Origin: Paraspadella gotoi
Taxonomy: Eukaryota; Animalia; Chaetognatha
Assembly (NCBI GenBank): GCA_051294375.1
Contig: CM119265.1
Coordinates: 62,169 to 126,000 of the forward strand
Reading direction: 5' to 3'
Length of the DNA: 63,832 nt
Shown: positions 4,209-63,832 of the stretch, in pieces
Layout: each line of letters opens with the position of its first letter
Position numbering within the stretch: the first letter of the stretch is position 1
Notes under the pieces: model-generated
Told to the model about the DNA's origin: nothing
What the model saw: the letters and a program-made list of their open reading frames with translations, nothing else
Databases searched by the model: none
Program-made: the position numbers and the translations under genes

Positions 4209-4623
4209 TGTAGCCTTTGCCCTGGCACAAAAGTAATTTTATTAATTAATTTAATATATCGAATCACATTAGTAATGTTTATAATACTTATATAACTTAA
4301 TTTCGAATCTCCCTTAATTAATTATATTTTATAAATAACAATGTCATCACCGGATTCGAACCTGCGACCTAAGTGATCCTAGGCCGCCGTCTTACCGATT
4401 CTGCCATCGGGCACATTTACCTGAAAACACCCAAAACCTGGATTAATGTTATTAAGACTCTTACTGACGGCCCTTTTGTTTATATAGTCTATCTCGATGG
4501 CCGCCAGTGGCGTTAATACTTGAATCACAGTAGCACACGCTTTTAACTGTAGTTATTGGGAGATGATTCGATATTATCCAATTCCTGTTTTAACCTCATG
4601 GTGCCAGGTTGTACAATATCTAC
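4209..4623 (+). repeat. 3' LTR of A1
   Basis: follows the PPT; near-identical to 23419-23831, which is followed by a PBS. Confidence 0.93.
4342..4414 (-). promoter_or_regulatory. tRNA-like Pol III A/B-box module inside the LTR, antisense
   Basis: reverse complement has TGGCAGAATCGG and GGTTCGAATCC at tRNA spacing; cloverleaf stems mostly unpaired. Confidence 0.7.
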
Positions 4624-4624
4624 G

Positions 4625-4827
4625 TAGGGTTAGGGTTAGGGTTAGGGTTAGGGTTAGGGTTAGGGTTAGGGTTAGGGTTAGGGTTAGGGTGGGAGGGTTA
4701 GGGTTAGGGTTAGGGTTAGGGTTAGGGTTAGGGTGGTTAGGGTAGGGTTAGGGTTAGGGTTAGGGTTAGGGTTAGGGGTTAGGGTTAGGGTTAGGGTTAG
4801 GGTTAGGGTTAGGGTTAGGGTTAGGGT
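4625..4827 (+). repeat. (TTAGGG)n telomeric repeat tract 1
   Basis: tandem TTAGGG lying directly between two LTRs. Confidence 0.99.
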
Positions 4828-5278
4828 TGTAGCCTTCAGTCCTGGCACCAAAATTAATTATTATTAATTATAGTATTTTATTTACAAAGGAACCAATTAA
4901 TAATTATCTTTCGAATTATGTAATACATCTTTTTATGTCTCCTAAATTAATTTATATATTATAAATAGCATGCCCTCACTCGGATTCGAACCCCCGACCT
5001 TTCGAGCCAAAGTCGAGCGTTCTAACCATTAAGCCATGATGGCTCTGTTACTCAAAGACATCCAAAACTCGGAGTAATATTATTTCCTTAATATCTCTTC
5101 TCATATTCGATGCTCTTTTGTTATTATCAACTCCCCTAATGGTTCAAGCTCGTTACTAATAACTCAGAGGGCTCTGTATTCGGAGACTAACCGTTTTCAG
5201 GAATTAACGTTTGGAGACTTTCCTGGTTCCTATTTCAATCCTGTTTTTCCCTCGCGGTGCCAGGCTTTCACATCTACA
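4828..5278 (+). repeat. 5' LTR of A2
   Basis: TGTAG...CTACA termini, followed by 2 nt and the PBS. Confidence 0.9.
4971..5043 (-). promoter_or_regulatory. tRNA-like (Gln-TTG-like) A/B-box module inside the LTR, antisense
   Basis: reverse complement GCCATCA TGGCTTAATGGTTAGAAC G CTCGA CTTTGGC TCGAA AGGTC GGGGG TTCGAAT CCGAG TGAGGGC A; acceptor stem 6/7, anticodon stem 4/5, T stem broken. Confidence 0.75.
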
Positions 5279-5280
5279 AG

Positions 5281-5319
5281 TGGTGAGCCCAACTTAAGAA
5301 CCTAATCCAACCTTCTGAC
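5281..5319 (+). promoter_or_regulatory. primer binding site (tRNA-Trp type) with a second complementary box
   Basis: TGGTGAGCCCAAC 2 nt after the LTR, then CAACCTTCTGA. Confidence 0.8.
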
Positions 5320-5642
5320 ACTATGTCCAACAAATAACTAATGCCTTAGGGAAAACTTATTCATCGAAATAGTACTCATAAGCCTTAGAAACTTTTACCT
5401 ACAAAATTAGAACTGGAAACCTCTGATTCTCTCTCTAAAACTACAAACGAATCTCAATTGAAGAATCAACTACAAGAAGTCAAAACGAGATCAAGTGGAA
5501 GCTCAAGCGGACTATTACTTCTCCCTCAGGTAGGCAAGAAGTGAAATAAAATTAGGCTTTGCATCCTTGCCTATCTCTCATCGCCTTCCACTCTCCCTAT
5601 TATTTCCCTACCAATCTCGAAACCCACGTCGTCCTTCAACGA

Positions 5643-6718
5643 ATGAGTGGTCCCGCTGGAGGCACCCGCGCTCGCGCAGCGCATCAGGACAGCCCCGCCA
5701 ACGCATCTCCGCGTCGACACGAGCATTCGAATCGTCTAGCGCCGCCGGCGCCGATTGGATTCGGTCGAGGGCGTCGCTCTCCAAATCTAAGTGAGGCCCA
5801 GAACGATTTCCAATTCCCCACGACCGCGATGGCCGCGGCACCGGATCCTGATCCCCAAGCCGACCTCGTGCGCACCCTAGCGGCCACCCTCGCAGCGTCC
5901 CTTCAAGGCCTCGCGATCAAAAAGCCAAAATTACCCGACTTCGACGCCGAAAATGTGGAGCTGTGGATACAGCGGATAGAGGCGGCGTACACTCGCGCCG
6001 GCACTTCATCTCCTAAAGAGAAATTCGCCCATCTGGAGGACAAGTTTTCAGTGGACTTCAACCCCCGCGTCAACTCCTTCTTATTCGGCGAGGCAACCGA
6101 GTCTCGTTGGAAAGACTTTCTTGATTATTTGAGAACCGAATATGGCCGCACCCGATCTCAACAGGCCGCCTCCTGATCGACGGCACCCGTCGAGAGGGCC
6201 GGCGCCCATCGCAACTCCTCGCCATCATGAAGGAGAAAGCCGGCAAGGTGAGCGTGGACGACATACTCAAGGAACTACTCCTCAGAGAGCTACCTTCAGA
6301 AGTGCAGCGCAGCCTCGCCGAGCGAGTCGAAAAAGTCGACGCCGAGGCCGCCGCCAAATTTGCCGACGCCTACTTCGACCGCGAAGGCAAATTGATTCAT
6401 CACTCGACTCCCAGCACAGCGTACGCCGTCCAACAGCCAATCACGCCTCTTATGCAAAGCGAGACGCCTTTCTCAGACGACGTTAACGCCATCAATCGTC
6501 AACGACCAGGCCAATCGAATCGTCGACCATTCAACGCACCTCGACGACCAGTGAACGCCAGCAGGGCACCGACATCTCAGCCGAGCAGTCAGCAGAAGAC
6601 GACTAAAGTCGAAATCTGTTTCTATCACAAAAAGTTTGGCGACGCCGCCAAAAATTGTGAACCAGGCTGCTACAGGCAACAGCAACAGGAAAACTCGAGG
6701 GCCGGCGGGAGGAAGTGA
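5643..6718 (+). CDS. gag: Gag of A2 (one frameshift near 6172)
   Basis: LPDFDAENVELWIQR motif; C-terminal C-x2-H-x9-C-x3-C (CFYHKKFGDAAKNCEPGC). Confidence 0.9.
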
Positions 6719-6736
6719 ATGCCATCCCGGCCGGCC
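6688..6736 (+). promoter_or_regulatory. putative -1 ribosomal frameshift signal
   Basis: G_GAA_AAC in the gag frame, 5-nt spacer, hairpin GGCCGGCGGGA/TCCCGGCCGGCC; pol is in the -1 frame. Confidence 0.75.
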
Positions 6737-9700
6737 AAGTAATAGATTCCAAAGATTCACTTTTATTCGCGTACGACGTCGACAACAAATTGAACTGGCT
6801 CGTCGACGGCGGCGCGACCGTCTCCATAGTTCCTCCAACGAATGCTGAGCGGGAACGAGGAGCGACATCAACTAAATTGAAGGCCGCAAATGGCACTCCA
6901 ATACCTTGCTACGGCTACAAGGACGTCCAGGTCCGCCTTGGAGGCCGCAAATTCCCTTTTACAGTAACTATCGCTGAAGTTACACAACCCATACTCGGCT
7001 CAGACTTCTTAGCCGAACACTACCTCGCTCCAAACCACAGAGATGGATTTTTATTCGACCTGAGAGATTTTACAACCATAACCGCATCAAAAGCAAGCCA
7101 AAAACAAACAGTGAATCGCGTCAACTTCGTCAATCAAGCCGACGATCCCTATTATAGACTTTTAGATACATATCACGACTTATGCACCCCGTCTTTCCAA
7201 CCAACAGAACCAAAGCACGGGGTCAGGCATTATATACCCACCACGGGACGGCCAGTACAATCTCGAGCCCGCCGTCTAGCACCAGACAAACTAGAGGTGG
7301 CCAAAAAAGAGCTCGACAAGCTTTGTGAGCTGGGCATCGCTCGCCGCGCCAAGAGTGAGTGGGCGTCGCCCCTCTTAGTAGTGAACAAACCAGATGGTGG
7401 TCACCGAGTTTGTGGCGATTTCCGTCGCCTTAATAACGCCACTCTGGACGACAAGTATCCAGTGAAAACCCTAAACGATTTTAATGCAAATCTAAGCGGA
7501 AAACAAATCTTCAGTAAAATAGACTTATTGAAGGGCTATCACCAGATACCCGTGGCGGAGGAAGACGTGGCAAAAACTGGCGTTATTACGCCATTCGGAC
7601 TATACGTTTTTCCTCGGACCCCGTTCGGACTTAAGAACGCGGGTCAGGATTTCCAACGCCTAATGGATGAGATCCTGGACGGGTTACCCTTCGTTTTCGT
7701 CTATATCGACGATATTCTCGTCGCCTCCGACAATCCTCAACAGCATGAGCAGCATCTCCGCGAGGTTTTCGACGTCCTTCATCAGAATGGTTTAGTCGTG
7801 AATCGACAAAAATGCGTGCTCGGCAAATCAGAACTCGATTTCCTTGGATACAGGATCAACACTAACGGAATCGCCCCTCTACCGGATCGAGTAGCCGCCA
7901 TAAGCGAGACAACTCCTCCGACGACAATAAAGGAACTACAGCGATTCCTAGGACTCATTAACTACTATAGACGCTTCATTCCTCGATCCGCTCATCATTT
8001 GTATCCATTATTCGAAGCACTCAAATCGAAAACGAGGCCACGCGTTTTGAATTGGACTACAGATTGTCAAACAGCTTTCGAGTCAATCAAAAAAGCTCTA
8101 GCTCAAGCGACAATGTTATGTCATCCACGACCAACGGCGAAACTCGCAGTGACATCTGACGCCTCCAATACAGCGATCGGCGCCGTCTTGGAGCAACGGG
8201 GTCCCAAAGGATGGGAACCGTTGGCATTTTTTTCGGCGAAGCTTCAAAAAAACCAACAACTCTGGCCGCCTTTCGATCGGGAGCTGCTCGCTGCATGGCG
8301 AGCAATACGACATTTCAGGCCGATGATCGAAGGCAGAAGTTTCACTTTATATACTGATCACAAGTCTTTAGTCCCAGCACTCGCCAAAAAGACGGAGCCA
8401 CATACCGCGCGACAGACTTATCAATTAGCCGGCATTGCAGAATTTACTACAGATATTCAATACTTAGCCGGAAAAGCCAATGTCGTCGCCGATTCTCTCT
8501 CTCGTCCCAACGTCGAGCCAGAACCAAGAGCAACGTCTCCTCCTCTTTCTCCCCCTCCCCACTCACCAACCCCTTTTTCCCCCTTCTTCCCCTTCCAGGA
8601 AACCCAAATTCCTCCAAATAGTGGCGTCAATCAACAAAGAAGTCGTCCCGGAGAAGAAACAGCTCGTCAATCAACTCGCGGGCTCCATCCTCCAATACGG
8701 CGTCAACCTCGAGCAGCTGGCCGCGGACCAGCCGCTTGACGCCGACTATCGACGCATCTCAACGGACGCAGCTTCTGGACTTCGATTTCGACAGGTTCCT
8801 ATCGGCAAAACATCAATAATCGTCGACGTCAGCAACGGCCCTCCAAGACCCTTCGTGCCTTACTCATGGCGTCGACGCGTATTTGAGACGATCCATAACC
8901 TAGGACACCCAGGCGTTGAACGAACTCGCCAAACGGTGGCTGAAAAATTCGTTTGGCCCTCCATGCGTTCCGACGTCTCGAAATGGTCACGTGAGTGTCA
9001 AGACTGTCAACGAGCAAAGGTGACTCGCAACACTGTGCCGGAAATCGGCACCTTCGAGCTGCCCGACCGACGCTTCAGTCACATACACGTCGATATTGTG
9101 ACCCTTCCCCCCTCCAACGGCTATAATTATATCCTCACAGCGGTGGACCGCTTCACCAGATGGCCGGTGGCCATTCCGATGAAGGATATAAACGCCAAGA
9201 CTGTCGCTGACGCCCTCGTCCACGGATGGGTCTCATCCTTTGGCGTCCCCTCCACTATCACAACCGACCGGGGATCCCAATTTCTCTCGACAACGTGGCG
9301 ACAATTACTTACATCATGGGGAATTAAACATAATACAANNNNNNNNNNNNNNNCTCAATCTAACGGACTCGTGGAACGATTTCACCGTCGCCTCAAGGAG
9401 TCACTCATCGCCCTCGGCGCCGACTCCAGAGGCGATTGGTATTGGCGCCTCCCCTGCTCGCTACTGGCGATACGAACAACTCTAAAACCCGACATAGGAG
9501 CGACGCCGGCCGAACTAGTCTATGGCGAAACGATTGCCGTCCCCGGCGACCTCATTTCCAGCCAAACCGGAAGTGACGCCGGCGAGCGTCAACAACGCCA
9601 GCGCACACTCGCTAAGCTTCAACTCGAAGTCGCCAGGCTCCAGCCCGCTCCTACGACCACACATCGTCAGCCTCAACTTCATCTTCCGGAAGCACTGCGC

Positions 9701-10017
9701 CACGCCTCCCACGTCTTCGTACGCCGAGGCGGCGTCACCTCGACACTCTCCGCTCCGTACCTCGGCCCTTATCGAGTCATTTCCCGCGACGAATTTACTT
9801 TTAAATTGGCAATTCCCGGCCGCGCAAACGAAAACGTCTCCATTTCACGTTTGAAACCCGCCTACGAGGCGGACGACGACGCCGCCGACAACGCCAGCCC
9901 GCCCAACACGCCTTCGACGCCTCCCTCGCCTCCTCCGCCAGGCCGTCGACCCGGCGTCCGCACTCGCGAGCCGCCTCCGTCGACACGAATCCTCCGATCG
10001 AATCGAAATAGTGATAT
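6715..10017 (+). CDS. pol: Pol of A2 (PR-RT-RH-IN; frameshift in the Pro-rich linker near 8560-8620; runs into the gap)
   Basis: ORFs 6715-8739 and 8480-10120 carry all catalytic motifs. Confidence 0.92.
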
Positions 10018-10117: not shown

Positions 10118-13100
10118 TGACGCGGGCGACGTTGACTACTTCTCGTCCTTTGCTTGGGATTTCGATGGTAAAGTTTAATCCGTTGCGATTTATAACCCGG
10201 TAGGGCCCTTCGTATGGAGGAACTAAGGGAGGATGAACTCCAGCTCTTCTGACGAAGACGTGTTGTGCAGTTTCGAGATTACTCGGTAGGTGAACATTAG
10301 GCTGATGATGAGCGGATGTCGGAGTTGGTTGAAGGCGAGCGATTTCTACTCTTAGATTCGCCAATTGAGTTCGACGTCGGCGCTGTAGTGCTTCATCGTC
10401 GACTTGTGTGTTATCTACTATGCATCCGGGCACACTTATTCCTTCACCGAAAACCATATCGGCGGCTGAGGCGCCGATATCCTCTTTTATCGTTGTTCTG
10501 ATGGCTAACAAAGTCATTGGGAGTTTCCAGAACCATTTTTCCCTGTTCTCCTTAGCGAGGGCCATTAACGATTCTTTTAAGCGCCTATGAAAGCGCTCAA
10601 CTAGGCCGTTCGCTTGAGGGTGGTACGCAGTAGTGGTCTGGTGTTTGATTCCCCATTGTTTTAGTAATTGTCGCCACAACGCTGAGTTAAACTGCGTGCC
10701 TCTATCGGTTGTAATAATCGACGGTGTTCCAAATACGCTTATCCACTCTAGGCTTAATGCGTCTAGAATTGTCGACGTTAGCGTATTACAGATGGGGATG
10801 GCCGCTGGCCATCTGGAAAATCGATCTACTATCGTCAGTAGGTGAGTAAATCCATTCGAATTTGGCATTTTAACTAAGTCGAGGTTGATGTGCTGAAATC
10901 TTTTAGGCGGGATTTTAAATTCGCCTATTTCAGGAATTGTATGTCTCGTAATCTTAGCTCTTTGGCAGTCGAGGCAGTCTCTAGCCCATCTGGAAATATC
11001 TTGTTTCATGTTTGTCCAGACGAATTTAGAAGTAATGGCCTTGCGCGTAGCCTCGACGCCTGGATGGCCGAGTCCATGAATGATATCGAAGACCTTTCGC
11101 CGCCATGATGCTGGGACAAAAGGTCGAGCAGGTCCGTTCGAAATATCCGCCAAGAGGTCTCGTTCACCTATTTTAATTTTCCTAAACGTAAGTCCCGTTC
11201 GGGCATCCTCCGCTATCTTTTGATAGTCTGGGTCCAACGTTTGCTCACAGGCCATCTGCTCAAAGTCAATTTCGTAGTTTGTCATCGAGGCGATCATAGC
11301 CCGTGCATCCTCGAGGCGATTCGCTTTTATTTGGCGATCGGTTGAGTTATTTAGAGTTGTAGGGCCTAACGGGATCTCTGCCGTCGATGTTGATTCGAGC
11401 GATGGACTTGTTGGCGTCGTTGTCTTGACCTGGGATGACGTTGGTTGAACTGTGGTGACGGGAACTGTTGGCGTTGTCGCTGGTGCTGCTGCTGCCGCTG
11501 CTGCTGCCGCTGCTGCTGCCGCTGGCGCCGCTGCTGCTGTCGATTTTGTTTTCGACGCTGCTGCTGACGATTTCGATTGTTTTTCGGCCGTCAATGTCGC
11601 GGTTGACGCTGCTGGCGACGCTGCTGCTGACGCTGTTGCTGTCGCTGCTGCTGTCGCCGCTGCTGTCGTCGATGCTGCGGGTTTTTCTGATGTCGAAGAG
11701 CTCGTCGTCGCGTTCGGTCGTGAGAGAGCGTCGGCGACGACGTTAGCCTTTCCTTTTAGATAACGGATATCTGTTGTAAATTCGGCTATAACCGATAGTT
11801 GGTAGGCCTGGCGGACCGTTTGTGGCTCCGCTTTCTTTTTGATGGCTGATACCAGGCTCTGATGATCCGTGTATATTGTAAAGGAGCGACCTTCGACCCA
11901 GTGCCTGAAGTGCCTCACTGCCTTGAAAGCTCCAAAAAGTTCCTTATCGAATGGAGGCCACAACTTCTGATTTTTGGCGAGCTTGGTCGAAAAAAATGCC
12001 AGAGGCTCCCATCCCTTAGGTCCTCGTTGTTCCAGGACGGCTCCGACTGCCTGATCTGAGGCGTCGGTTGTAATGCAAAGTTGGGCGCCTGTCCTTGGGT
12101 GATGAAGAAGCGCGGCTTGGATCAGACCTTCTTTTATTGATTCGAACGCGCGTTCACAGTCTGATGTCCATTCGAGTGACTTGGGTTTACCACTAAGGGC
12201 TTCGTATAGCGCGGAGCATCGATGAGCTACTCTGGGAATGAAGCGTCGATAGTAGTTTATCATTCCCAGAAAGCGCTGAAGCTCTTTGATAGTGGTTGGC
12301 CTTGTAGTTTCGCGCAGCGTTTGCACTCGCTCGGGTAGAGGTCTCACCCCGTTTTTATCTACTAAGAATCCCAGAAACTCCAGCGACTCTTGACCCAGCA
12401 GGCATTTTTTAGTGTTGACCACTAAGCCGTTAGCATCCAGAGCCCTGAAAACGTTTTCGAGATCCTTGAGATGTTCCTCTGGAGTTGACGATGCAACCAG
12501 GATGTCGTCCAGGTAAACGAAGGTGTGTGGAATGTCCCCGAGTATTTGGTCCATAAGACGCTGGAAATCTTGTCCTGCGTTCTTAAGACCAAAGGGACAT
12601 CGGGGAAAAACGTACAAGCCGAATGGTGTTATGACTGCCGTTTTTTTTACATCCTCTGGGTTGACCGGGATTTGATGATAGCCTTTTAATAGGTCTATCT
12701 TTGAGAAGATGGTCTTCCCCTCTAATTGCGCGTTGAAATCCGTTAATAGCTTAACAGGATACTTGTCGTCAATTGTTTGTGAGTTGAGGCGCCGGTAGTC
12801 GCCACAACAGCGCCACCCACCATCCGGTTTAGAGACGACGTGGAGCGGAGACGACCATTCTGACTTGCCTCGTTGAGCAATGCCTAGGGAGACCATTTTC
12901 TCCAACTCTTTTTTCGCTACTGCCAATTTCTCTGCGTCAAGTCTGCGAGCTCTGGACTGACAAGGCCTGCCCTCCGTCGGGATGGAGTGCGTGACTCCAT
13001 GTTTCGGTTCCTTTAGTTCGAAGGTAGGCGTTGACAAAGAAGGAAAAGAGTCCAATAGTTTATAATACTTCTCGCCCTGGCGGTCAACGAAATTTACGTG

Positions 13101-13511
13101 GGCGGTCGTTTCAGATGCAGTTGACGCTGTTGACGCTGCTATGGTGGAGTAGTCTTTTAAGTCGAGTAAAAGTCCATCCCTATGATTTGGCGCTAAGAAA
13201 TTTTCGGCCAGAAAATCAGCTCCCAATATATGTTGCTTGACTTCTGCTATGACGAATTCGTAGCTGAATTTCCGGTTTCCAAGCTGTACATCTCTCTCGA
13301 TCGTTCCGTAGCAAGCGATTGGCGATCCATTCGCCGCCTGAAGTTTTACTTCTGGGTCTGGACCGCGTTGACGCTGTTCTTTTGTTGGCGGGACGATTGA
13401 GAGGAGGGCGCCGCCGTCTACCAACCACTTCGTTCTGTCTCCTGCGTCACGAATGTAGAGTAGATCTGATGGCGACGGTGATGACCTTGAAGCTTGGGGG
13501 ACGGCGTTCAC
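10118..13511 (-). CDS. pol: Pol of B1
   Basis: LVDGGA, YLDD, TTDAS, HGLGH..CLDC, TDRG, NGLVER, YEGPY; Ala/Thr-rich linker between RNase H and IN. Confidence 0.95.
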
Positions 13512-15436: not shown

Positions 15437-15539
15437 TCCCCCCCTGTCGTAATATAAGGTATTAACATATTACTACAAAATTGTTGTCGTCCATTCTGAG
15501 TGTTTGAAAGTATGATGAAGAATTAAAATCAATATATTA

Positions 15540-53513: not shown

Positions 53514-54522
53514 AAAAGGTATATAAAACACTAAGTGTTCAACTAAGTAAAAATCGAATCGTTTTTTAAAGATGATAAACGATAGTAAACGGTGATAAAT
53601 AATTTGGACGAGTAACGGGTTTTAAAATTTTTGATGATTAGGATGAGTAACGAGATTCGCGATTAATTCGATGATTATAGTAACGTTCTTATTAACGTTT
53701 AACATATTAAAAATATTTCGAGATGTATCGAGTGAAATAAACGACAATTGAAATTGAAAAAAATAAATTTAAAGTTTTTGAAAGGGTGAATTCAGGACAG
53801 GATTGAATTTCACCAGGTTAACGAAAAAGAATGAGTTTGNNNNNNNNNNGACCCGTTCGAGTTTGTGATGGAGAGGTCTCCTCGTTGTTGATTTGCTGGA
53901 GCACATGTGCTAGCACCGCCGAGTAGGAACGGCGAGTGGAGTTGACGTTTGAAGGCGAATTTTGACGCCTCGCCGCTCGATATGAAAAATTATCGGGCGT
54001 TGGTTTCGAGAATATATGAGGGCGAGGGGAGCGACGAGGGGACGAGGCAGGAAGGGGATCGTCTCCGGGGATGCCTCGTGCTTGCGTTGGGCTGGAATCG
54101 TCTTCGTTGGCGTCGAATTGCTCTTCCTCCTCTTGATCTTCCGGTTTGTTTACATCTTTGTTTACTTTTTGGCCCGGTTTGTTTATTTTATGTTTTAAAG
54201 GGGGAAAATCGACCAGGGAAGGGAAGTGAAGGGTCGATGTTGGTCGGGGGGAGGTAGGGGGAGGGGNNNNNNNNNNNNNNNNNNNNGGAGGAGGAGGAGG
54301 AGGAGGAGGAGGAGCGGACGAGTTCTCGGTTGTACTTGATCGAAGATTCCGAGTTGATGGAGCGGGGAAACGGCTTCTGATTCCGGGACGCCGGCCCGGC
54401 GGGGGCGGCGAGGGAGGAGGCGACGGCGTGCGTGGTGGACTAGCGCCGCCGCTGGCGTCATTTCCGGCGTCGTCGTCCGCCTCGAAAGCGGGTTTTAGGC
54501 GAGAGATTGAAACGTTTTCGTT
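53514..54522 (-). other. inverted duplicate of the A5 integrase tail and 3' UTR between two gaps
   Basis: reverse complement of about 51569-52597; bounded by 100-N gaps. Confidence 0.85.
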
Positions 54523-54622: not shown

Positions 54623-55938
54623 GGTTTTCTAGTAAAAAACATGAAATGTTCTTGAATGTCATGCAAAAAAAGTCTTTTGATGCATATGATGATAAACGAT
54701 TTATACTTTAGCTCATGGACATTATAAAGTTCCATTTATCAAAGAACAATGGAATGAAGATTTGAATAGTCTTGTTAAATTGATATAATTTTTTTTAGAA
54801 TGACGATGTGTCCAATTCAACTGGAGATTGAGATGGATTTTTTAAAGTAATAGGGTTTTTTTAATTTTTCTTCAATTTTTTTTCTTATCTGTGGGACATT
54901 GTTTTAAAACATTGTTTGTAAGCACTTAGCCTCTAACCTAATTTGTTACCTTACATTCATGCTGGGGCGCAAGCCATTCTCACTCTTCAAAAATAAAGAA
55001 TCAATCCAAAAAAAAAAAAAAAAAATAAATCACGAGATTTAATAAATATAATCACGAGCAGCAGCCAACATGACGTGAGTTAGTAGAGAGAGACGCGAGC
55101 TTTATAGATAGAGAGAGCCAAGAGCGGAGTCAAAAGCTGTTACAAATCAGATAATTTCAATGTTTAGAATCATTTCAAAAAGTTACAGAATATTCCTTCA
55201 TCATGGTTACCCTAATGTTTCCTGGGCAATCTCCTACAGAAGTTTAACGATCTATTGCTTTCATACTTCTTTAAATGGAAAGAGACCAATTAAAAACGAT
55301 GTTCGCACTCTTTGAGAATACTACAGATAATGTGATCAGAAAGGTCTCGCCAATCAGGAATTAAGAACCAAATAATAACCCAATGAAATCACAGAATAGA
55401 AGGACCCGCGAGTTGTGAGAATTTAAGCTAGTACTTATTGTATTCATATAAAACCGAATATTAACTTTCGAAAAAACTAATTAATATTAATAAACTATTT
55501 AACACTTATCAATTAATTTTTAACAAACATTTTTGATTTTTTCATTTAGAACAAAGTTTTTGAAAAGAGATAAACAATGATTTTATTTCAAATTTTTTCA
55601 AATAAATCACAATGAAACAGAAAGGAAAAATACATAATGATTTTTTCATAAAGAAATAATTAAGAGTTTTTTTATTTAGTACTATTTTTTTAGTTTATAA
55701 AATTTTATAAAAACTTCTCTAGATTCTTTAATCACAGTTTCAATTTCATCTGCATTGGGAGTTTAATTGAGATATGCCCCTATATTTTTTTTCAAAAAGT
55801 TTACAAGTAAATTTGTAAAAATGTAAATGTTTTAGTTTAAAAATATTTACTTATTAAATATGAATAAAATGTAGACTTATGTTAATGCTGGTTTATTGCA
55901 TTTTCTTTTTAATTACAGAATAAAGTATCAATAATATG
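54623..55938. other. AT-rich segment with no similarity to the elements; possible host or subtelomeric DNA
   Basis: no long ORF, A-run near 55008-55025, not repeated elsewhere in the window. Confidence 0.55.
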
Positions 55939-56666
55939 TGCGGTCCACTCGATCGAATCCATTTCATTTGGGAAATAAATTCATCATTTATAAAGCTTTA
56001 AATAGAAGACGAGATCTTTTGTTTTACAAAAGATATATCTAACTTCTCCAAGATGTCTCCACATATTAAACCTTTTGTTTGATGACTGTTTACCTTTGTT
56101 ATTGATTTTAATTCTGTTCAGTTCGGTTTTGAATCTTGATTCAAATAGAATCTTTCATCAATTAAAAACTCGTTTTTATTATTCAACAAATGTAAAGCTA
56201 CATTAAGAAAGTGCTGAAATAAAAACTAAATGAACTCGTTAATGTTTCTAACCAATCAATAAAATCTGCCAACCAATCAATTCATCTCTAATCGAATCTT
56301 AGTTATTTCTCAATTGGTTAAACAAATAAACAATCATCTTAATGTTAAACGAATCACCTTCCCTGCGACTTAATCACCTCCGCTAATCACCTTCGGTTCC
56401 AACGTCTTAGGACTGACTCATTTCAGTTGGTCAGTCAACTTCGTTCATTGCTGTGGCCTGTCTCTGTGAGCTAACCACACTTGGTGAGCACCGACAAAGG
56501 ACGTTACCAACTTCAAACGGGAAAGTCGGCGACACCTAACCCTCCTCGAGGTAAGATTGGGTGAAGAGTGGGATTTTAGTGAGTTGCCCCCAATCTTCTC
56601 ACACTTTTCCCTTCTTTTTAAACTTTCCCTTCACGTGAATCGCTGGATCCGAATTCGACGCCGTCA

Positions 56667-57749
56667 ATGAGTGGGTCTGATCTAAGATCACGCTTACGCT
56701 CCGCTCAACGCGACGTCGACGAGCAGGGACAACGCCTCCAGATTCCTTGTGGATTCGGGAGAGGCGCTCGCTCGAGATCGACGTCTCCAATCTTTGCTGA
56801 CGTCGCACCGAACTTCGATTTCCCGACGGCCGGCGCCCACGATTTCGACGACGCCGACATGGCAACGGCCGACGCGACGCCGCGTAGCTTACGCGACGAA
56901 AACGACGAATTGCGCGCCGCCCTCGCCGCGGCGACGAGAGCATTGGAGAGAGCGTCTAATCGCAAACCGGATCTACCGGACTTCGACTCATCTAATATAG
57001 AGATCTGGATAAAGCGTGTAGAAGCCGCCTACACGCGCGCAGGGATCGTCAACCCCAGGAACAAGTTCGCCCACTTGGAATCGAAAATTGGGATAAACGT
57101 CGATCCCAAGATCAACCAATTTCTTTTCGGTGAAACCACTGAGGCGACTTGGGAAGAGTTTATCGCCTACTTACGCAGCGAATATGGACTAACGCGGCGC
57201 CAGCAAGCCGCGAATCTGCTCGACACCCTCGACACAGACGGCGCTAAACCCTCAAAAATCCTCGCCAAACTCGAAGAGAAAACAAGGTCTCTCACTATCG
57301 ACGACGTGAGAAAAGAAAAGATCCTGCGAGAACTCCCAAACGACATTCGACGCCAACTCGAGGAAAAGGCGGATAACCTCACCGCCAGCGAGTTATGTAA
57401 ACTGGCCGACCATCACTATGACAACGACGGCAACGTCAAACTGAAACAAACGTCGTCACTAATCAACAACGTCGAGAGAGATTTGCATAATCATCGCAAC
57501 TCGGACTCAGACGACGACGACGATGCAGTCAACGCAGTCGACGACCATCCTCGACGACACGCTGGAGGAAAGAAGCGTCAACATCCGGCGTCGAAAGGAA
57601 AAGCGAAACCCAAGGCTAAACTCGTCACTCTATGCACCAAACACGCAAGGTTCGGAGACGACACGTGGACGTGTGAAGCAGGCTGCTCTCGCTACGAGGA
57701 GTTCCAAAAGAAAAAAGAGGGAAACGCCAAGGGGGGACGCCGGCGGTGA
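56667..57749 (+). CDS. gag: Gag of B4 (360 aa)
   Basis: CTKHARFGDDTWTCEAGC CHCC motif; G_GGA_AAC at 57719-57725. Confidence 0.94.
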   Translation: MSGSDLRSRLRSAQRDVDEQGQRLQIPCGFGRGARSRSTSPIFADVAPNFDFPTAGAHDFDDADMATADATPRSLRDENDELRAALAAATRALERASNRKPDLPDFDSSNIEIWIKRVEAAYTRAGIVNPRNKFAHLESKIGINVDPKINQFLFGETTEATWEEFIAYLRSEYGLTRRQQAANLLDTLDTDGAKPSKILAKLEEKTRSLTIDDVRKEKILRELPNDIRRQLEEKADNLTASELCKLADHHYDNDGNVKLKQTSSLINNVERDLHNHRNSDSDDDDDAVNAVDDHPRRHAGGKKRQHPASKGKAKPKAKLVTLCTKHARFGDDTWTCEAGCSRYEEFQKKKEGNAKGGRRR

Positions 57750-60700
57750 ACGCCGTCCCCCAAGCGTCAACTTCTTCACCGGCGCCCAACGACCTTCTTT
57801 TCATCAGGGACGCCGGGGACCGGACTCGATGGTTAATTGACGGTGGTGCGTTACTCTCTATTGTTCCGCCGACGCCGCAGCAGCGCAGCAGCGGCCCGAA
57901 TCAAACGACAAAACTGCAGGCGGCCAACGGATCGCCAATATCATGCTACGGAACAGTCGAGAGAACGGTTCAACTAGGAAATAGAAAATACGTTTATCAA
58001 TTCGTAGTCGCCGACGTTAAACAAAGTATACTCGGCGCTGACTTCTTAGCAGAAAATTTCCTGGCGCCCAACCACCGAGATGGCCTTTTACTGGATTTAC
58101 GAGATTACTCTACCATAGCAGCGTCGACGTCAAAAGGAACATCCGCTCATGTCAATTTCGTAGACAGACAAGGCGAACAATATTACAAAATCCTCGAGTC
58201 ATTCCCTTCGCTGGCCACGCCCACTTTCGAGTTGAAAAACCCAAAGCATGGCGTGACACATTCCATCCCTACCGAAGGTCGTCCCTGCCAATCGCGTGCC
58301 CGGCGATTGGACCCTGAGAAATTGGCCGTGGCAAAGAGAGAACTTGAAAAAATGGTATCACTGGGTATAGCAAAGCGTGGCAAGTCAGAGTGGTCGTCGC
58401 CACTCCACGTCGTCGAAAAACCGGACGGGGGATGGCGTTGTTGTGGCGACTATCGCCGTCTCAACGCCCAAACGGTAGAAGACAGATACCCAGTTAAGCT
58501 ACTTACAGATTTCAATTCTCAATTAGAAGGAAAAACCATCTTCTCTAAAATCGATCTTTTGAAAGGGTATCACCAGATACCGGTGAACCCAGATGACATC
58601 AAAAAAACGGCAGTGATAACTCCGTTTGGCCTGTATGTTTTTCCACGTTGTCCTTTTGGACTGAAAAACGCAGGTCAAGATTTCCAGAGACTCATGGATG
58701 AGATCTTGGGGGATATTCCCCATACTTTTGTGTACTTAGACGACATCCTCGTCGCCTCCTCATCTCCAGAGGAACACAAGCAAGACCTCCAGCGCGTATT
58801 CAAAGCTCTCGATGAGAATGGTTTGGTTGTAAATACCAAAAAATGCCTTCTTGGACAAGAATCGCTCGAATTTCTGGGATTTTTGGTCGATAAGAACGGT
58901 GTACGACCACTACCGGAAAGAGTTCAGACACTCCGCGAGACGACACGGCCCACAACTATCAAAGAGTTGCAACGTTTCCTCGGTATGGTAAATTATTACC
59001 GCCGCTTCATACCGAGAGTTGCCCATCGATGTTCAGCTCTCTACGAGGCTTTGAGCGGCAAGCCTAAAACACTGAACTGGTCTGAAGACTGTGAAAAGGC
59101 CTTCGAGGCCATCAAGGAAGGCCTCATCTCGGCAGCACTGCTTCATCATCCTCGGACTGGAGCTCAGTTGTGTATAACGACTGATGCATCAGACAACGCC
59201 ATTGGAGCCGTCCTAGAACAACGAGGACCGAAGGGATGGGAGCCACTAGCTTTTTTCTCGGCTAAATTAGCAAAAAACCAAAAGCTGTGGCCTCCCTTCG
59301 ATAAGGAGTTACTAGGAGCCTTCAGAGCCGTCCGCCATTTCAGGCATTGGGTGGAGGGACGAGCTTTCACGATCTACACCGATCATCAAAGCCTCGTCTC
59401 AGCGATAAAGAAAAAATCCGAGCCACAAACGATCCGACAAGCTCATCAACTATCGTCGATAGCCGAATTTACCACGGATATTAGATATCTCAAAGGTAAA
59501 GCAAATGTTGTGGCGGATGCGCTCTCTCGTCCCAACGCCCCATCGACAACTCCAGCAACGGCGAGAGAAAACTCCGAGTCGAAAAAAGAGCAGCAGACCG
59601 ACAGACCGACCGACGAAAAACGAGACATCGAAAAACGCGAAAAAAGCATTAAGCCAGATCGACTTGAAGACGCTCAAGCCGTCATCTCATCACTCACTAG
59701 CTTTGAGATAGACTTCGAGGACATGGCTCGCGAACAAGTCTTAGACCCTGAATTTCAAAAGATATCTGACGACGCCAGATCGGGACTAAACTTCAGAAAA
59801 ATCCGCATAGGCGATCACGATCTACTCGCCGACATCTCGAATGGTCCAGCTAGACCTTTTGTTCCCGCGTCTTGGCGTCGCAAAGTTTTCGAGGTAATTC
59901 ATGGATTAGGCCATCCCGGCGTCGACGCCACAAGGAAAGCAATATCTGCAAAGTTTGTATGGACTAATATGAGACAGGACGTGTCGAAGTGGGCAAGAGA
60001 CTGTGTTGATTGCCAACGCGCCAAGGTCACGCGACACGTCGTCCCTGAAATCGGGGAATTCAAAGTCCCTCATCGTCGATTTCAACATATTAATCTGGAC
60101 TTAGTTAAAATGCCAAAATCAAACGGATATTCGCACCTATTAACTATCGTCGACAGATTCTCAAGATGGCCGTCGGCCATCCCTATCATCGACACCCTGA
60201 CGCCGACGATCCTCGATGCTCTCAGCCTACACTGGATTAGTGTCTTCGGAACACCAGCTATCATAACCACGGATAGAGGAAGTCAATTCAACTCGGCCTT
60301 GTGGAAGCAGCTAACGAAGCACTGGGGCATAAAACACCAGATGACCACGCCCTATCATCCACAGGCGAATGGTTTGGTTGAAAGGTTCCATCGGAGGCTC
60401 AAGGAATCGCTCATGGCATTGGGGAAAGAGGAGAGACAACAATGGTACTGGAAATTACCGTTGACATTATTGGCAATTAGGACCACGATCAAGGAAGATA
60501 TTGGAGCATCGGCTGCAGATCTTGTTTTCGGCGAAGGTGTAAGCATCCCTGGCAGTATGCTTGGAGACTTTCAAAACGACGACGAGAATCTCAATCGCCA
60601 GCGTCGAAATCAACTTTCGAAATTAAGACTCGAAGTAGCTCGATTACAGCCAACTCCAACGTCAGCACATCAACAGCCCGCTGTACATCTCCCTTCGAAT

Positions 60701-61294
60701 CTCACCACCGCCCAGTATGTCTTCATCAGACGAGCCGGCGTTCAACCGCCGCTGACACCTCCCTACGACGGCCCATTTCGAGTGATTCATCGAAATGGAC
60801 TTAATGTCACCGTCGAAATTCCCAGCTCGGGAAGGGCAACCGTCAACGTCTCCAGAATCAAACCAGCGTGGATCAGCGACGAGCAGCTGGACGTCGACGA
60901 CTCACAACCTCGCCCAGAGAGAGCTCCTGGCCGTCGGCCAGGCGTAAGAACTCGAAAACCGGCGCCAACAACGAGAAAAACGCGATCGGCGAATCGGCGA
61001 GCGTCGTCTCCTCCTCCTCCTCCTCCTCCTTCATCCACCTCTTCGATACTCACCGCGAATCACCCTCAGCCTCTCCCTGACCCACCACGAACGCCTTTAC
61101 GCTTTTTGTCACCATCTTCTCATTTTCCCGAGCCTCCACGCTCGACGACTCCATCATCAAAAAAACGAGAAAATAATAACAACAACAATAACAATCGCCC
61201 AACTTATGCTATCGTCTTAAAAGAAATGCTACAAAGACAAAAAACGGAAAATGACAACAACAAAAACAAAAACAAAACCCTCGCGCTAACATAA
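57746..61294 (+). CDS. pol: Pol of B4 (1182 aa, intact)
   Basis: LIDGGA, YLDD, TTDAS, HHCC, DDE and YDGPF motifs. Confidence 0.97.
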   Translation: MNAVPQASTSSPAPNDLLFIRDAGDRTRWLIDGGALLSIVPPTPQQRSSGPNQTTKLQAANGSPISCYGTVERTVQLGNRKYVYQFVVADVKQSILGADFLAENFLAPNHRDGLLLDLRDYSTIAASTSKGTSAHVNFVDRQGEQYYKILESFPSLATPTFELKNPKHGVTHSIPTEGRPCQSRARRLDPEKLAVAKRELEKMVSLGIAKRGKSEWSSPLHVVEKPDGGWRCCGDYRRLNAQTVEDRYPVKLLTDFNSQLEGKTIFSKIDLLKGYHQIPVNPDDIKKTAVITPFGLYVFPRCPFGLKNAGQDFQRLMDEILGDIPHTFVYLDDILVASSSPEEHKQDLQRVFKALDENGLVVNTKKCLLGQESLEFLGFLVDKNGVRPLPERVQTLRETTRPTTIKELQRFLGMVNYYRRFIPRVAHRCSALYEALSGKPKTLNWSEDCEKAFEAIKEGLISAALLHHPRTGAQLCITTDASDNAIGAVLEQRGPKGWEPLAFFSAKLAKNQKLWPPFDKELLGAFRAVRHFRHWVEGRAFTIYTDHQSLVSAIKKKSEPQTIRQAHQLSSIAEFTTDIRYLKGKANVVADALSRPNAPSTTPATARENSESKKEQQTDRPTDEKRDIEKREKSIKPDRLEDAQAVISSLTSFEIDFEDMAREQVLDPEFQKISDDARSGLNFRKIRIGDHDLLADISNGPARPFVPASWRRKVFEVIHGLGHPGVDATRKAISAKFVWTNMRQDVSKWARDCVDCQRAKVTRHVVPEIGEFKVPHRRFQHINLDLVKMPKSNGYSHLLTIVDRFSRWPSAIPIIDTLTPTILDALSLHWISVFGTPAIITTDRGSQFNSALWKQLTKHWGIKHQMTTPYHPQANGLVERFHRRLKESLMALGKEERQQWYWKLPLTLLAIRTTIKEDIGASAADLVFGEGVSIPGSMLGDFQNDDENLNRQRRNQLSKLRLEVARLQPTPTSAHQQPAVHLPSNLTTAQYVFIRRAGVQPPLTPPYDGPFRVIHRNGLNVTVEIPSSGRATVNVSRIKPAWISDEQLDVDDSQPRPERAPGRRPGVRTRKPAPTTRKTRSANRRASSPPPPPPPSSTSSILTANHPQPLPDPPRTPLRFLSPSSHFPEPPRSTTPSSKKRENNNNNNNNRPTYAIVLKEMLQRQKTENDNNKNKNKTLALT

Positions 61295-61636
61295 ATCAGC
61301 AGCCGGAGCTAGGGATGCTTCATCCATCTTCCTCCATCGTCACGACGTCAGCTCCGACTGCTGAAAAGCTAGCTTGGCTACCACTCTCTATCTTTGTATA
61401 TAGCAAGCTATATAATATTTGATATTTATTCGATTTTACAATATTTTGAATGTTTTTAATTTTTGAAATTTTTATGTCAGTCGGTCAATCGTCTATTTCA
61501 GGAGGAATATCTTAAAATTGTTATTTTTTACCATTTTATTTTCACAAACACACACATACTCGTGGACGACAAACAATATTATTGATATATATTAATTTCA
61601 ATTTTGCTTTATATTATATATCCCAACAAGGGGGGA

Positions 61637-62175
61637 TGCGGCCACTCGATCGAATCCATTTCATTTGGGAAATAAATTCATCATTTTATAAAGCTAAATA
61701 GAAGACGAGATCTTTTTGTTTTAACAAAAGATATATCTAACTTCTCCAAGATGTCTCCACATATTAAACCTTTTGTTTGATGACTGTTTACCTTTGTTTA
61801 TTGATTTTTAAATTCTGTTCAGTTCGGTTTTTGAATCTTGAATTCAAATAGAAATCTTTCATCAATTAAAAACTCGTTTTTTATTATTCAACAAAATGTA
61901 AAGCTACATTAAGGAAAGTGCTGAAATAAAAACTAAATGAACTCGTTAATGTTTCTAACCAATCAATAAAATCTGCCAACAATCAATTCATCTCTAATCG
62001 AATCTGAGTTATTTCTCAATGGTTAAACAAATAAACAATCATCTTATGATTAAACGAATCACCTTCCTGCGACTTAATCACTCCGCTAATCACCTTCGGT
62101 CCAACGTCTTAGGATGACTCATTCAGTTGGTCAGTCACTTCGTCATTGCTGTGCCCTGTCTCTGTGAGCTCCACA
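61637..62175 (+). repeat. 3' LTR of B4
   Basis: direct repeat of 55939-56479; ends CCACA then GGGTTA. Confidence 0.93.
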
Positions 62176-62277
62176 GGGTTAGGTTAGGGTTAGGGTTAGG
62201 GTAGTTAGGGTAGGGGTTAAGGGTTAGGGGAGGGTTAGGCTTAGGGTTAGGGTTAGGGTTAGGGTGGTAGGTTAGGT

Positions 62278-62310
<33 letters not shown>

Positions 62311-63265
62311 GGGTTAGGGGGGAGTTATTAGATTGGTTAGGGTTAGGTTAGGGTAGGGTTAGGGTTAGGGTTAGGGTTAGGGTTAGGTGTTAGGTTAGGT
62401 AGTAGGGAGTTAGGGGGTTAGGGTTAGGGTTGGGGTTAGGGTTAGGGTTGGGTGGTGGTTAGGGTTAGGTTAGGGTTAGGGTTGTTAGGGTTAGGGGTTA
62501 GGGTAGTAGGGTTAGGGTTAGGTAAGGGTTAGGGTTTAGGGTTAGGGTTAAGGGTTAGGGTTAGGGTTAGGGTTAGGTAGTAGGTTAGGGTAGGGTTAGA
62601 GGGTTAGGGTAAGGTTAGGGTTAGGGTAGGGTTAGGGTGGTAGGTAGGGTTAGGGGTTAGGGGGGTTGGGTGGTTGGGTTAGGGTTGTTAGGGTTAGGGG
62701 TTAGGGTTAGGTGGTAGGTAGGGTTTAGGGTAGGTTAGGGTTAGGGTTAGTTAGGTGGGTTAGGGTAGTAGGTTAGGGTTAGGTTAGGGTGGTTAGGGGT
62801 TAGGGTTAGGGTTAGGGGTTAGGGTTAGGGTGGGTTAGGTTAGGGTAGGAGTTAGGTTAGGGGTTAGGGTTAGGGGTTAGGGTTAGTTAGGGTTTAGTGG
62901 TTAGGGTTAGGAGTTAGGGTAGGGGTTTAGCGGTGTTAGGGTAGGGTTAGGTTAGGGTTAGGGTTGTAGGGTTAGGGTTAGGGTTAGGGTAGGGTTAGGG
63001 TTAGGGTAAGGTTAGGGGTTAGGTGTTAGGGTTAGGGTTAGGGTAGGGTAAGGGTTAGGGTTTAGGGTTAGGGTTAGGAGTTAGTAGGGTTGGGTGTTCG
63101 GTTACGGGGGGTTAGGGTTAGGGGTTAGGGTTAGGGAGGTTAGGTTAGGGTTAGGTTAGGGTTAAGGTTAGGTAGGGTTAGTTTTAGTTGGTTAGGGGGG
63201 TGGAGGTAGGTTAGGTTGGGTGGTGGAGGTAGTTTAAGGGTGTAGGTATGGTTGGTTGGCTGGGT
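62176..63265 (+). repeat. (TTAGGG)n tract 6 (degenerate or noisy)
   Basis: TTAGGG with many variant units. Confidence 0.96.
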
Positions 63266-63832
63266 TGTACGCATTGCCAGGTTCACCCGCCTATAAGAAT
63301 GACAACCTTCAGTCCCTGACCCGGTGCTCATTGAGTAAAGCCATCAGCTCATGAACCACTGGTACCCGGGTCGAATCCAACCCGGTCCTACGCCTGCGGA
63401 AGCGTGAGGACGGCCGGTAAACCGCCTTGGGGCGATGGCACCCCTCAAGCCTGGTTCCAAGCCGGACCGTTCCATGGCTACTAAAAGGGGGTTATAGAAG
63501 TTAGGATAGTCATCCTTCAGAACCCACTTAGCGGCCTTATCCACACTGGTGAGCCCTATACCTGTCGAAGCGTATCCAACCTTTCTGATTCAGGCCCATG
63601 GACAGTGCTGAAGATTGCTGCCTCCCTCCACTGGAAGCAGTGAGGGTGGGTTACAAATCTGGGGGGCATGTAGTCGGGCATTGGCCTAGGTTCACCCCGC
63701 CTATAAGCATGACCACTTCAGTCCCTGACCCGGTGGCTCATTGAGTAAAGCATCAGCTCATGACCACTAGGTACCGAGGTTCAATCCCACCCGGTACCTA
63801 CTCTGCGGGAAGCGTGAGGACGGCCGTAAGCC
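63266..63832 (+). mobile_element. non-autonomous miniature LTR element (TRIM); 3' LTR cut by the window end
   Basis: LTR 63266-63545, PBS TGGTGAGCCC at 63547, 123-bp non-coding interior, PPT GGGGGGCA 63661-63668, second LTR from 63669. Confidence 0.88.
63727..63798 (+). promoter_or_regulatory. tRNA-like A/B-box module in the TRIM LTR, sense orientation (also at 63318-63388)
   Basis: TGGCTCATTGAG ... CTCATGA ... GGTTCAATCCC (GGGTCGAATCC in the first copy); TATAAG about 25 nt upstream. Confidence 0.62.

What the first reader, a model, noticed from the sequence alone, without database searches (positions are those of the whole stretch)
4209..63832. Array of Ty3/Gypsy LTR retrotransposons inserted in (TTAGGG)n: candidate telomere-targeting LTR lineage
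Seen: wherever an outer LTR end is resolved without a gap or artefact it abuts telomeric repeat directly (4623, 4828, 22784, 23419, 39179, 45947, 46618, 53158, 53290, 62175, 63266); the only exception is 55939. B3 and A5 are full-length with TTAGGG on both sides, and no element is clearly nested inside another although elements make up most of the DNA. Known: telomere-specialised retroelements are mostly non-LTR or Penelope-like (SART/TRAS, MoTeR, Athena, HeT-A/TART/TAHRE); yeast Ty5 targets silent chromatin rather than the repeat sequence. Inference: a CsRN1-like LTR lineage that targets the telomeric repeat and may contribute to chromosome-end structure. I cannot confirm that it is undescribed.
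Basis: partly seen in the sequence, partly recalled or inferred. Interest (0 to 1): 0.95.

Follow-up and report, generated by a model that had tools for sequence, protein, structure and literature searches.

The report
Gypsy retrotransposons homing into telomere repeats
Several young LTR-type jumping genes, and a tiny gene-less one, sit inside telomere-type TTAGGG repeats, mostly at the same position of the repeat, which likely means their integrase homes in on these repeats, a habit my literature searches found only for other classes of mobile element; whether the repeats are true chromosome ends is untested.

Summary
11 of 12 resolved outer LTR ends abut (TTAGGG)n.
(1) The junctions share one register...GGGT|TG (5 of 6) and CA|GGGT (2 of 5 exact, 2 with one error). 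That is a 4-bp target duplication GGGT, the mark of integrase insertion (7 of 11 exact, P about 0.004).
(2) The LTRs of two lineages (about 69% RT-RH identity) carry a decayed antisense tRNA-derived unit. All 9 exact B boxes in the window lie in LTRs, against 0.5 expected.
(3) The last element is a Helenus-like TRIM at the same register.
The autonomous elements have CsRN1 hallmarks (CHCC gag, tRNA-Trp-type PBS, -1 frameshift) and form their own clade with unnamed metagenome relatives. Short-read contigs from three studies hold the B3 element.
Caveats: the scaffold is noisy and partly misjoined. One junction is not telomeric. Genome-wide flanks, chromosome-end location and host TERT are untested. 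Verdict: probably a real telomeric-repeat-targeting LTR lineage, not found in my 10 literature searches.

The parts
1..4623 (+). A1: 3' part of an A-lineage element (PR-RT-RH-IN, 3' UTR, PPT, 3' LTR 4209-4623)
4330..4413 (-). Antisense tRNA-derived unit (exact B box at 4362) directly downstream of a sense TATAAATA at 4330
4624..4827 (+). (TTAGGG)n tract 1
4828..10017 (+). A2: 5' LTR 4828-5278 (left flank GGGT), PBS, gag, pol, cut by an N100 gap
4971..5043 (-). tRNA-like unit in the A2 LTR, Rfam RF00005 34.8 bits (gathering 29)
10118..15436 (-). B1: pol and gag, with an LTR (14812-15436) shared in tandem with B2; antisense B box at 15374
15437..22221 (-). B2: gag, pol and 3' UTR, with a displaced RT-RH duplicate at 15542-16837; 5' LTR lost in a gap
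22341..22784 (+). A-type 3' LTR with PPT after an N25 gap; right junction CA|GGGT exact; antisense B box at 22505
22785..23418 (+). (TTAGGG)n tract 2
23419..26132 (+). A3: 5' LTR 23419-23831 (left flank GGGT; 0 substitutions against the A1 LTR), gag and start of pol; probably the 5' half of A1
26133..31841 (-). A4: gag and pol; both LTRs lost at misjoins
31842..38242 (-). Displaced RT-RH duplicate (31842-32594), then A5 (gag, pol, inner end of the 5' LTR running into an N100 gap)
38343..39178 (+). (TTAGGG)n tract 3
39179..45947 (+). B3: full-length element; LTRs 39179-39879 and 45253-45947; intact CHCC gag (40000-41148) and -1 frame pol (41118-44912); flanks GGGT| and |TGGG; antisense B boxes at 39242 and 45305
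45948..46617 (+). (TTAGGG)n tract 4
46618..53158 (+).
53159..53289 (+). (TTAGGG)n tract 5
53290..53413 (-). 3' end of a B-type LTR in the opposite orientation, abutting tract 5; register ambiguous
53514..54522 (-). Noisy reversed duplicate of the A6 3' region; probable assembly artefact
54623..55938 (.). AT-rich non-repeat DNA, the flank of the one non-telomeric junction
55939..62175 (+). C1: full-length B-lineage element; LTRs 55939-56479 and 61637-62175 (2 substitutions); left flank not telomeric, right junction CA|GGGT exact; no TSD; no B box in its LTRs
62176..63265 (+). (TTAGGG)n tract 6, the most degenerate (74% matches)
63266..63832 (+). Helenus-like TRIM: 5' LTR 63266-63545 (left flank GGGT), PBS, about 120-bp non-coding core, PPT, 3' LTR from 63669 running off the window; sense-strand A/B boxes (B at 63368 and 63778)

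Best explanation
These are young CsRN1-type Ty3/Gypsy retrotransposons of two deep lineages, plus a gene-less TRIM, lying in (TTAGGG)n tracts mostly at one register, and they likely got there by integrase-catalysed insertion aimed at telomeric repeats. Shown: element anatomy, TG...CA ends, repeat flanks, the GGGT register, both orientations. Inferred: (1) The integrase makes a 4-nt staggered cut at TTA^GGGT^TAG and duplicates GGGT; the site reads A-NNNN-T on both strands, which suits a symmetric intasome. (2) The choice of region most likely comes from tethering to telomere-repeat chromatin, as Ty5 does through Sir4, perhaps through the long Pro/Arg-rich integrase tail (PGRRPG), and local sequence preference fixes the register. 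(3) Repeated insertions break the repeat array into short tracts, giving a SART/TRAS-like mosaic, most likely subterminal, with telomerase still supplying fresh repeat. (4) The decayed antisense tRNA unit beside the LTR TATA box likely acts as a TFIIIC-binding DNA element (a barrier against silencing or a promoter modulator) and not as a tRNA. (5) The TRIM borrows A-lineage machinery.
For: 11 of 12 resolved ends are telomeric. Register: left flank GGGT in 5 of 6; right flank GGGT exact in 2 of 5 and one edit away in 2 more; 7 of 11 exact, P about 0.004 with one free phase. A 4-bp TSD is the CsRN1 norm (PMC2582038) and the animal Helenus norm (PMC10886601). No nesting was seen although repeat is 5.6% of the DNA: a crude random model gives 0.02 for the 15-kb block and 5e-8 for nine copies, or 0.01 with tenfold more repeat. 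The trait is shared by lineages A and B (68-70% RT-RH identity) and by the TRIM. LTR pairs differ by 2-10 substitutions, and B3 has intact ORFs. Short-read contigs of 4 runs from 3 studies match the B3 pol region almost letter for letter. One contig (X6 record 17) aligns 14 letters of repeat flank onto a related LTR start. Exact B boxes: 9, all in LTRs, against 0.5 expected. All 6 plus-strand TATAAATA in the window lie 13-14 nt before a reversed B box. The cloverleaf is not kept: 53% of cells pair against 52% shuffled. The TRIM shares its PBS start, the CAACCTT motif and its PPT with the A lineage.
Against: C1 has a non-telomeric left flank and no TSD, so its family probably has at least one ordinary insertion, or C1 is a chimera. 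The window was singled out for its repeats (ascertainment), and genome-wide flanks were not seen. Three of 5 right junctions and 1 of 6 left junctions are not exact. The scaffold has clear misjoins. The contig support for a junction is 14 letters, below the tool's 31-letter bridging standard, and one of the runs may be the source sample. None of the close relatives fetched (L001-L004, L006, L010) shows a telomeric flank, and none has a resolved outer LTR end. Nothing tests tethering, terminal location or the barrier role. C1 lacks the B box yet looks young and intact.
Confidence: 0.68

Rival explanations
1. There is no regional targeting. The families insert widely with at most a local sequence preference, and copies survive or were sampled in telomeric repeat because insertions there are harmless.
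For: C1's left flank is ordinary DNA. Many related subfamilies exist in the organism (237 contigs laid in X3, 113 under 90% alike), and their flanks were not seen. The window is an ascertained sample.
Against: No nesting into the element DNA that makes up most of the window. The register is fixed. Known CsRN1 elements show no target nucleotide preference (PMC2582038).
Confidence: 0.13
2. The junctions come from end capture and telomerase healing: linear cDNA is joined to a chromosome end, and telomerase extends the 3' CA end with GGGTTAG.
For: CA|GGGTTAG is the register expected if telomerase primes on a terminal A (inference from the telomerase mechanism, recalled). It would explain C1 having one ordinary and one telomeric side.
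Against: It does not predict the matching GGGT|TG left register (5 of 6), nor an opposite-orientation LTR end in a same-polarity tract (53290). A 4-bp TSD explains both sides with one event.
Confidence: 0.07
3. The array is an assembly artefact: repeat-ended contigs were stitched to telomeric reads.
For: 18 N gaps, displaced noisy duplicates, a split copy (A1/A3) and indel-rich LTRs.
Against: An assembler has no reason to join exactly at TG...CA termini in one repeat register, 11 times. One short-read contig shows repeat flank on a related LTR start. The artefact reading explains the order of the blocks, not the junctions.
Confidence: 0.07
4. The elements have been domesticated to maintain chromosome ends, supplementing weak or absent telomerase as SART/TRAS or HeT-A/TART do.
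For: Insertion density is high, the tracts are short, and the copies are young and intact. Bombyx is a precedent (PMC4700185).
Against: Both orientations occur, and insertion is internal, not end-addition. Perfect runs of up to 25 repeats suggest a working telomerase. There are no TERT data.
Confidence: 0.05

Closest known systems
CsRN1 clade of Ty3/Gypsy (CsRn1, PwRn1, AgCR1-14); PMC2582038 (abstract, section 6 and passages read)
   Same: CHCC gag (CX2HX9CX3C), tRNA-Trp-type PBS, 4-bp TSD, -1 frameshift, PR-RT-RH-IN order, GPY/F, no env or chromodomain
   Different: Known members show no target preference. Here there is a fixed site in (TTAGGG)n, a protease motif DGG in place of D[ST]G, antisense tRNA-derived units in the LTRs, and a separate clade (about 49% RT-RH identity to named cestode and nematode elements).
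SART1/TRAS1 of Bombyx (PMC4700185, passages read); MoTeR/FoTeR (PMC12857005, Background and passages read)
   Same: Insertion at a defined position in telomeric repeat, giving element-repeat mosaics
   Different: They are non-LTR elements whose endonuclease reads the repeat (TPRT). These are LTR elements with a DDE integrase, a TSD and both orientations.
TATE of Leishmania braziliensis (PMC6681497, one passage read)
   Same: Fixed position within the same GGGTTA hexamer
   Different: TATE is a DIRS-type tyrosine-recombinase element at GGG^TTA in tandem clusters. Here the enzyme is a DDE integrase and GGGT is duplicated.
Ty5 of Saccharomyces (PMC4700185, passages read)
   Same: LTR element directed to telomeric regions through its integrase
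   Different: Ty5 is a Copia element that targets Sir4 silent chromatin, not the repeat itself, and no fixed register is described in the passages read.
Helenus / TRIMp3 (PMC10886601; parts 1-4 and 6 of 6 read, supplements not read)
   Same: The 63266 element is a TRIM under 1 kb with tRNA-type A/B boxes in its LTRs, a PBS and a PPT; animal Helenus have 4-bp TSDs and are inferred to use Gypsy machinery
   Different: No telomeric targeting is mentioned in the parts read. The paper analysed only TRIMs and expects autonomous partners to have plain Pol II LTRs, whereas here the autonomous LTRs carry a tRNA-derived unit themselves, antisense.
TelKA of bdelloid rotifers (PMC5408684, passages read)
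   Same: LTR retrotransposon clade (its subtelomeric origin is recalled, not seen in the passages)
   Different: TelKA carries dUTPase and often env; neither was found here, and no repeat targeting appears in the passages.

Membership tests
Ty3/Gypsy LTR retrotransposon | LTRs with TG...CA ends, PBS and PPT | tested here: met
Ty3/Gypsy LTR retrotransposon | pol order PR-RT-RH-IN | tested here: met
   Pfam RVT_1, RT_RNaseH, Integrase_H2C2 and rve in this order in 5 long pol ORFs; protease weak hits N-terminal in 2 ORFs
CsRN1 clade | Gag CX2HX9CX3C (CHCC) | tested here: met
   7 of 7 gag ORFs examined, one with N-masked spacer letters; definition
CsRN1 clade | PBS complementary to tRNA-Trp (TGGTGAG/CCCCGT/A) | tested here: met
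   A lineage TGGTGAGCCC(A/G)AC in 4 of 5; B lineage more diverged (TGGTGAAAC..., TGGTGAGCAC...); host tRNA-Trp not available
CsRN1 clade | 4-bp TSD | tested here: met
   GGGT inferred from the pooled junctions; neither complete copy shows it error-free on both sides
CsRN1 clade | -1 frameshift or fused ORF; GPY/F; no chromodomain or env | tested here: met
   -1 offset in 6 of 6 examined; GPY/F-type motif in 6 of 7; no chromodomain or env hit among the 26 ORFs scanned
CsRN1 clade | Protease DT/SG tripeptide | tested here: not met
   DGG in 3 of 3 window pols and 5 of 5 close relatives shown; a general Gypsy motif, not clade-defining, so treated as a derived variant
CsRN1 clade | RT phylogeny groups with CsRn1/PwRn1/Kabuki | tested here: inconclusive
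   No named CsRN1 reference was available. The quick tree joins the window clade with CsRN1-like Sparganum and Trichuris proteins (SH-aLRT 95) against distant Gypsy loci, with a long-branch warning
Helenus (TRIMp3), element at 63266 | TRIM under 1 kb with two LTRs, PBS, PPT, no coding | tested here: met
   280-bp LTR and about 120-bp core; the 3' LTR runs off the window
Helenus (TRIMp3), element at 63266 | tRNA-like sequence with A and B boxes in the LTRs | tested here: met
   B box exact at 63778 and with 1 mismatch at 63368; TGGCT A-box start; ARAGORN calls a tRNA only at a relaxed threshold
Helenus (TRIMp3), element at 63266 | 4-bp TSD (animal Helenus) | not testable with these tools
   The right end lies outside the window; the left flank ends GGGT
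Telomere-specialised retroelement | Copies largely confined to telomeric repeat genome-wide | not testable with these tools
   No whole genome is held; in the window, 11 of 12 ends
Telomere-specialised retroelement | Location at true chromosome ends | not testable with these tools
   The uniform polarity of all six tracts fits but does not prove it

The most novel reading that the evidence does not exclude
A whole CsRN1-derived clade of Ty3/Gypsy elements, widespread in unnamed metagenome assemblies, is the first LTR/DDE-integrase lineage specialised for the telomeric repeat itself. It inserts at TTA^GGGT^TAG, builds the subterminal DNA of its host's chromosomes, uses an antisense tRNA-derived TFIIIC site in its LTR to stay active in telomeric heterochromatin, and is the autonomous partner of a Helenus TRIM.
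Probability: 0.35. Interest if true: 0.9.

Novelty: new variant of a known kind. Interest (0 to 1): 0.74.

Why it matters
Telomere-repeat specialists in the papers I read are non-LTR or DIRS-type elements. The one LTR case, Ty5, targets chromatin and not the repeat. A DDE integrase that lands at one register of TTAGGG would be a new solution to safe-harbour integration and a tractable model for how integrases choose sites. It would also be a new way of building subtelomeres. The same locus offers a candidate autonomous partner for an animal Helenus TRIM, and autonomous LTRs with tRNA-derived promoter boxes, which the Helenus paper did not expect.

Tried and rejected
No whole genome is held, so there was no genome-wide flank census and no TERT search.

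Default ARAGORN found 0 tRNAs in the window. Rfam found 1 tRNA hit in the window and none in 6 related loci, so the antisense unit in the L006 LTR rests on alignment only. A functional-tRNA reading was rejected: cloverleaf pairing is at the shuffled level (214 of 500 shuffles as high).

Two scans of viral contigs found no relative. The metagenome scan gave 80 loci. Only L045, a distant element (39%), had a run of the hexamer (3 units), and the six close relatives are short and have no resolved outer LTR end. Two protein searches gave no named close relative: the 66-71% RT hits and 37-46% gag hits are unnamed, and the Atlas gave no taxa for the top clusters. The host phylum therefore stays unknown; 'animal' is an inference from the CsRN1 affinity and TTAGGG.

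Only 4 of the 9 organism-A runs were laid, and only on B3. The 55939 junction and the A-type junctions remain unchecked against short-read data.

A shelterin-docking [FYH]xLxP motif is not conserved in the integrase tails (2 of 99 relatives) and was rejected as the targeting motif. The careful tree did not finish, so the quick tree is reported; it used 61 rows (8 window proteins, 36 of 120 protein hits, 17 of 80 loci).

Ten literature searches found no LTR element targeted to telomeric repeats and no autonomous Gypsy with an antisense tRNA-like LTR unit. The library lacks most subscription papers and Repbase reports, and the Helenus supplements were not read. Searches of earlier scan findings by sequence and by place were empty.
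Full report
1. What is in the window. The 63.8-kb window is a noisy, gapped scaffold (18 N runs). It consists almost entirely of LTR retrotransposon DNA, six (TTAGGG)n tracts of 131-1090 bp (about 3.56 kb, 5.6%) and 1.3 kb of AT-rich non-repeat DNA. All tracts have the G strand on + (430 TTAGGG against 9 CCCTAA). Self-comparison and Pfam resolve two lineages of Ty3/Gypsy elements, A (A1-A6 and one isolated 3' LTR) and B (B1-B3, C1 and one LTR end), in both orientations, plus a TRIM at the right edge. No whole genome was held.

2. Observation check. Of the 12 listed outer LTR ends, 11 abut telomeric repeat and 55939 does not. I saw no nesting. The scaffold order is unreliable. A1 and A3 have LTRs with 0 substitutions and overlapping internal DNA with 4 substitutions, so they are probably one copy split in two. 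Three stretches are displaced near-duplicates, and B1 and B2 share one LTR. The 11 junctions therefore represent 8-9 copies. The best block is 38343-53413.

3. The register. Left flanks end in GGGT before the LTR's T in 5 of 6 cases; 53290 is ambiguous. Right flanks after the terminal CA begin GGGT exactly in 2 of 5 (22784, 62175), are one edit away in 2 (45947 TGGG, 53158 GGCT) and are noisier in 1 (4623). Seven of 11 exact has P about 0.004 with one free choice of phase. A left flank ending GGGT and a right flank starting GGGT is a 4-bp target-site duplication at TTA^GGGT^TAG. Four bases is the TSD length of CsRN1 elements, which otherwise show no target preference (PMC2582038 section 6). 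The LTR pairs differ mostly by indels (11-55 gap columns against 0-10 substitutions), so imperfect junctions are expected from the sequence quality. A crude random-insertion model gives 0.02 for the best block and 5e-8 for nine copies, or 0.01 with tenfold more repeat. It ignores selection and fresh repeat synthesis.

4. Outside support. Nine runs of one organism, in three studies, hold 45-71% of the words of 44000-53400; one may be the source sample. Four were laid on B3. The long contigs over pol match with 0-3 differences and correct indels in the LTR. Three contigs begin right at the LTR start, as expected at a branch point. One contig (X6 record 17) aligns from 39165, carrying 14 letters of repeat flank into a related LTR (15 differences over 118 letters). 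That is suggestive and below the tool's 31-letter bridging standard. Many related subfamilies exist in this organism (113 of 237 laid contigs in X3 under 90% alike), and their flanks were not seen. The 55939 junction and the A-type junctions are unchecked against short reads.

5. Family. Gag carries CX2HX9CX3C in 7 of 7 copies. Pol is in the -1 frame in 6 of 6. The PBS is TGGTGAGCCC-like. A GPY/F-type motif is present, and there is no env or chromodomain hit. These match the CsRN1 definition. The protease motif is DGG, not D[ST]G. In a quick RT-RH tree, lineages A and B (68-70% identical to each other) and unnamed metagenome relatives form one clade (SH-aLRT 99), next to Sparganum and Trichuris proteins at 46-50%. 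No named CsRN1 reference was in the tree, so membership rests on the motifs.

6. The LTRs carry tRNA-derived units. Exact B boxes number 9 in the window against 0.5 expected, and all lie in LTRs: 8 antisense in autonomous A and B LTRs and 1 sense in the TRIM. The A2 unit passes the Rfam tRNA gathering score (34.8 bits). Across 8 units the boxes are kept but the cloverleaf is not (53% paired against 52% shuffled). In A LTRs the unit ends beside a TATAAATA at a fixed spacing of 13-14 nt to the B box (6 of 6). A relative from another assembly (L006) has a similar antisense unit, by alignment only. C1 has none. The element at 63266 is a TRIM with sense A/B boxes, which fits Helenus (PMC10886601). 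It shares its PBS start, a downstream motif and its PPT with lineage A, and it sits at the same GGGT register. That paper expects autonomous partners to have ordinary Pol II LTRs. Unchecked earlier scan notes report tRNA-like blocks in other autonomous Gypsy elements, so this feature alone may be recurrent.

7. Mechanism. The best reading (0.68) is integrase-catalysed insertion aimed at telomeric repeat. The register is set by a symmetric A-NNNN-T site preference. The region is probably chosen by tethering to telomere chromatin, as for Ty5-Sir4 (PMC4700185). The Pro/Arg-rich integrase tail (PGRRPG in the window; RG?RP in 89 of 99 relatives) is a candidate only. The antisense tRNA unit is probably a TFIIIC-binding barrier or promoter modulator; tDNA barrier activity is recalled knowledge and untested here. 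The rivals are wide insertion with selective survival or ascertainment (0.13), end capture with telomerase healing (0.07), assembly artefact (0.07) and domestication in place of telomerase (0.05). C1, with one ordinary flank and no TSD, is the main result against strict targeting. It may be a chimera or recombinant of a telomeric and a non-telomeric copy, or the proximal border of an array.

8. Novelty. Fixed-site insertion into telomeric repeat is known for non-LTR SART/TRAS and MoTeR/FoTeR and for the DIRS-type TATE. Ty5 is LTR but chromatin-targeted. Ten searches of the open library found no LTR/DDE-integrase element doing this; Repbase and most subscription papers were not searchable. I rate it a new variant of a known kind, interest 0.74, and 0.9 if clade-wide terminal targeting is confirmed (probability 0.35).

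Noticed in passing
window 4330, 4960, 22473, 23538, 46746, 52849: All six plus-strand TATAAATA in the window lie 13-14 nt upstream of a reversed B box in A-type LTRs, so the predicted Pol II start would fall on the B box.
   Followed up: partly
L006:446-1222 (unit at 699-770, minus strand): A relative from another assembly has an LTR with an antisense tRNA-like unit (variant B box), preceded by a PPT and followed by a PBS, as in a tandem or collapsed copy.
   Followed up: partly
window 5308, 14783, 22193, 31803, 38175, 39908, 63577; L001, L002, L003: A CAACCTT(T)C[TA][GA] motif shortly downstream of the PBS is shared by both lineages, the TRIM and relatives; candidate packaging or primer-activation signal.
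   Followed up: partly
pol ORFs, e.g. window 41118-44912: The protease active site reads DGG in place of D[ST]G in window elements and close relatives: a marker for this clade.
   Followed up: partly
window 14812-15436: One LTR is shared between B2 and B1 (88% alike internally), a tandem dimer without telomeric spacer; recombinant or collapse.
   Followed up: no
table 5c, runs X3, X5, X6: A contig in three samples has 22 non-repeat letters between two telomere-like sides, at up to 2-3 times the B3 depth; possibly a variant subtelomeric repeat.
   Followed up: no
window 55939-56479 and 61637-62175: C1, the only copy with a non-telomeric flank, is also the only complete LTR type without a B box (n = 1).
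   Followed up: no
P0004-P0120: Over 100 unnamed metagenome proteins at 66-71% RT identity lie mostly on contigs of 4-10 kb, about one element long; a large undescribed radiation.
   Followed up: partly
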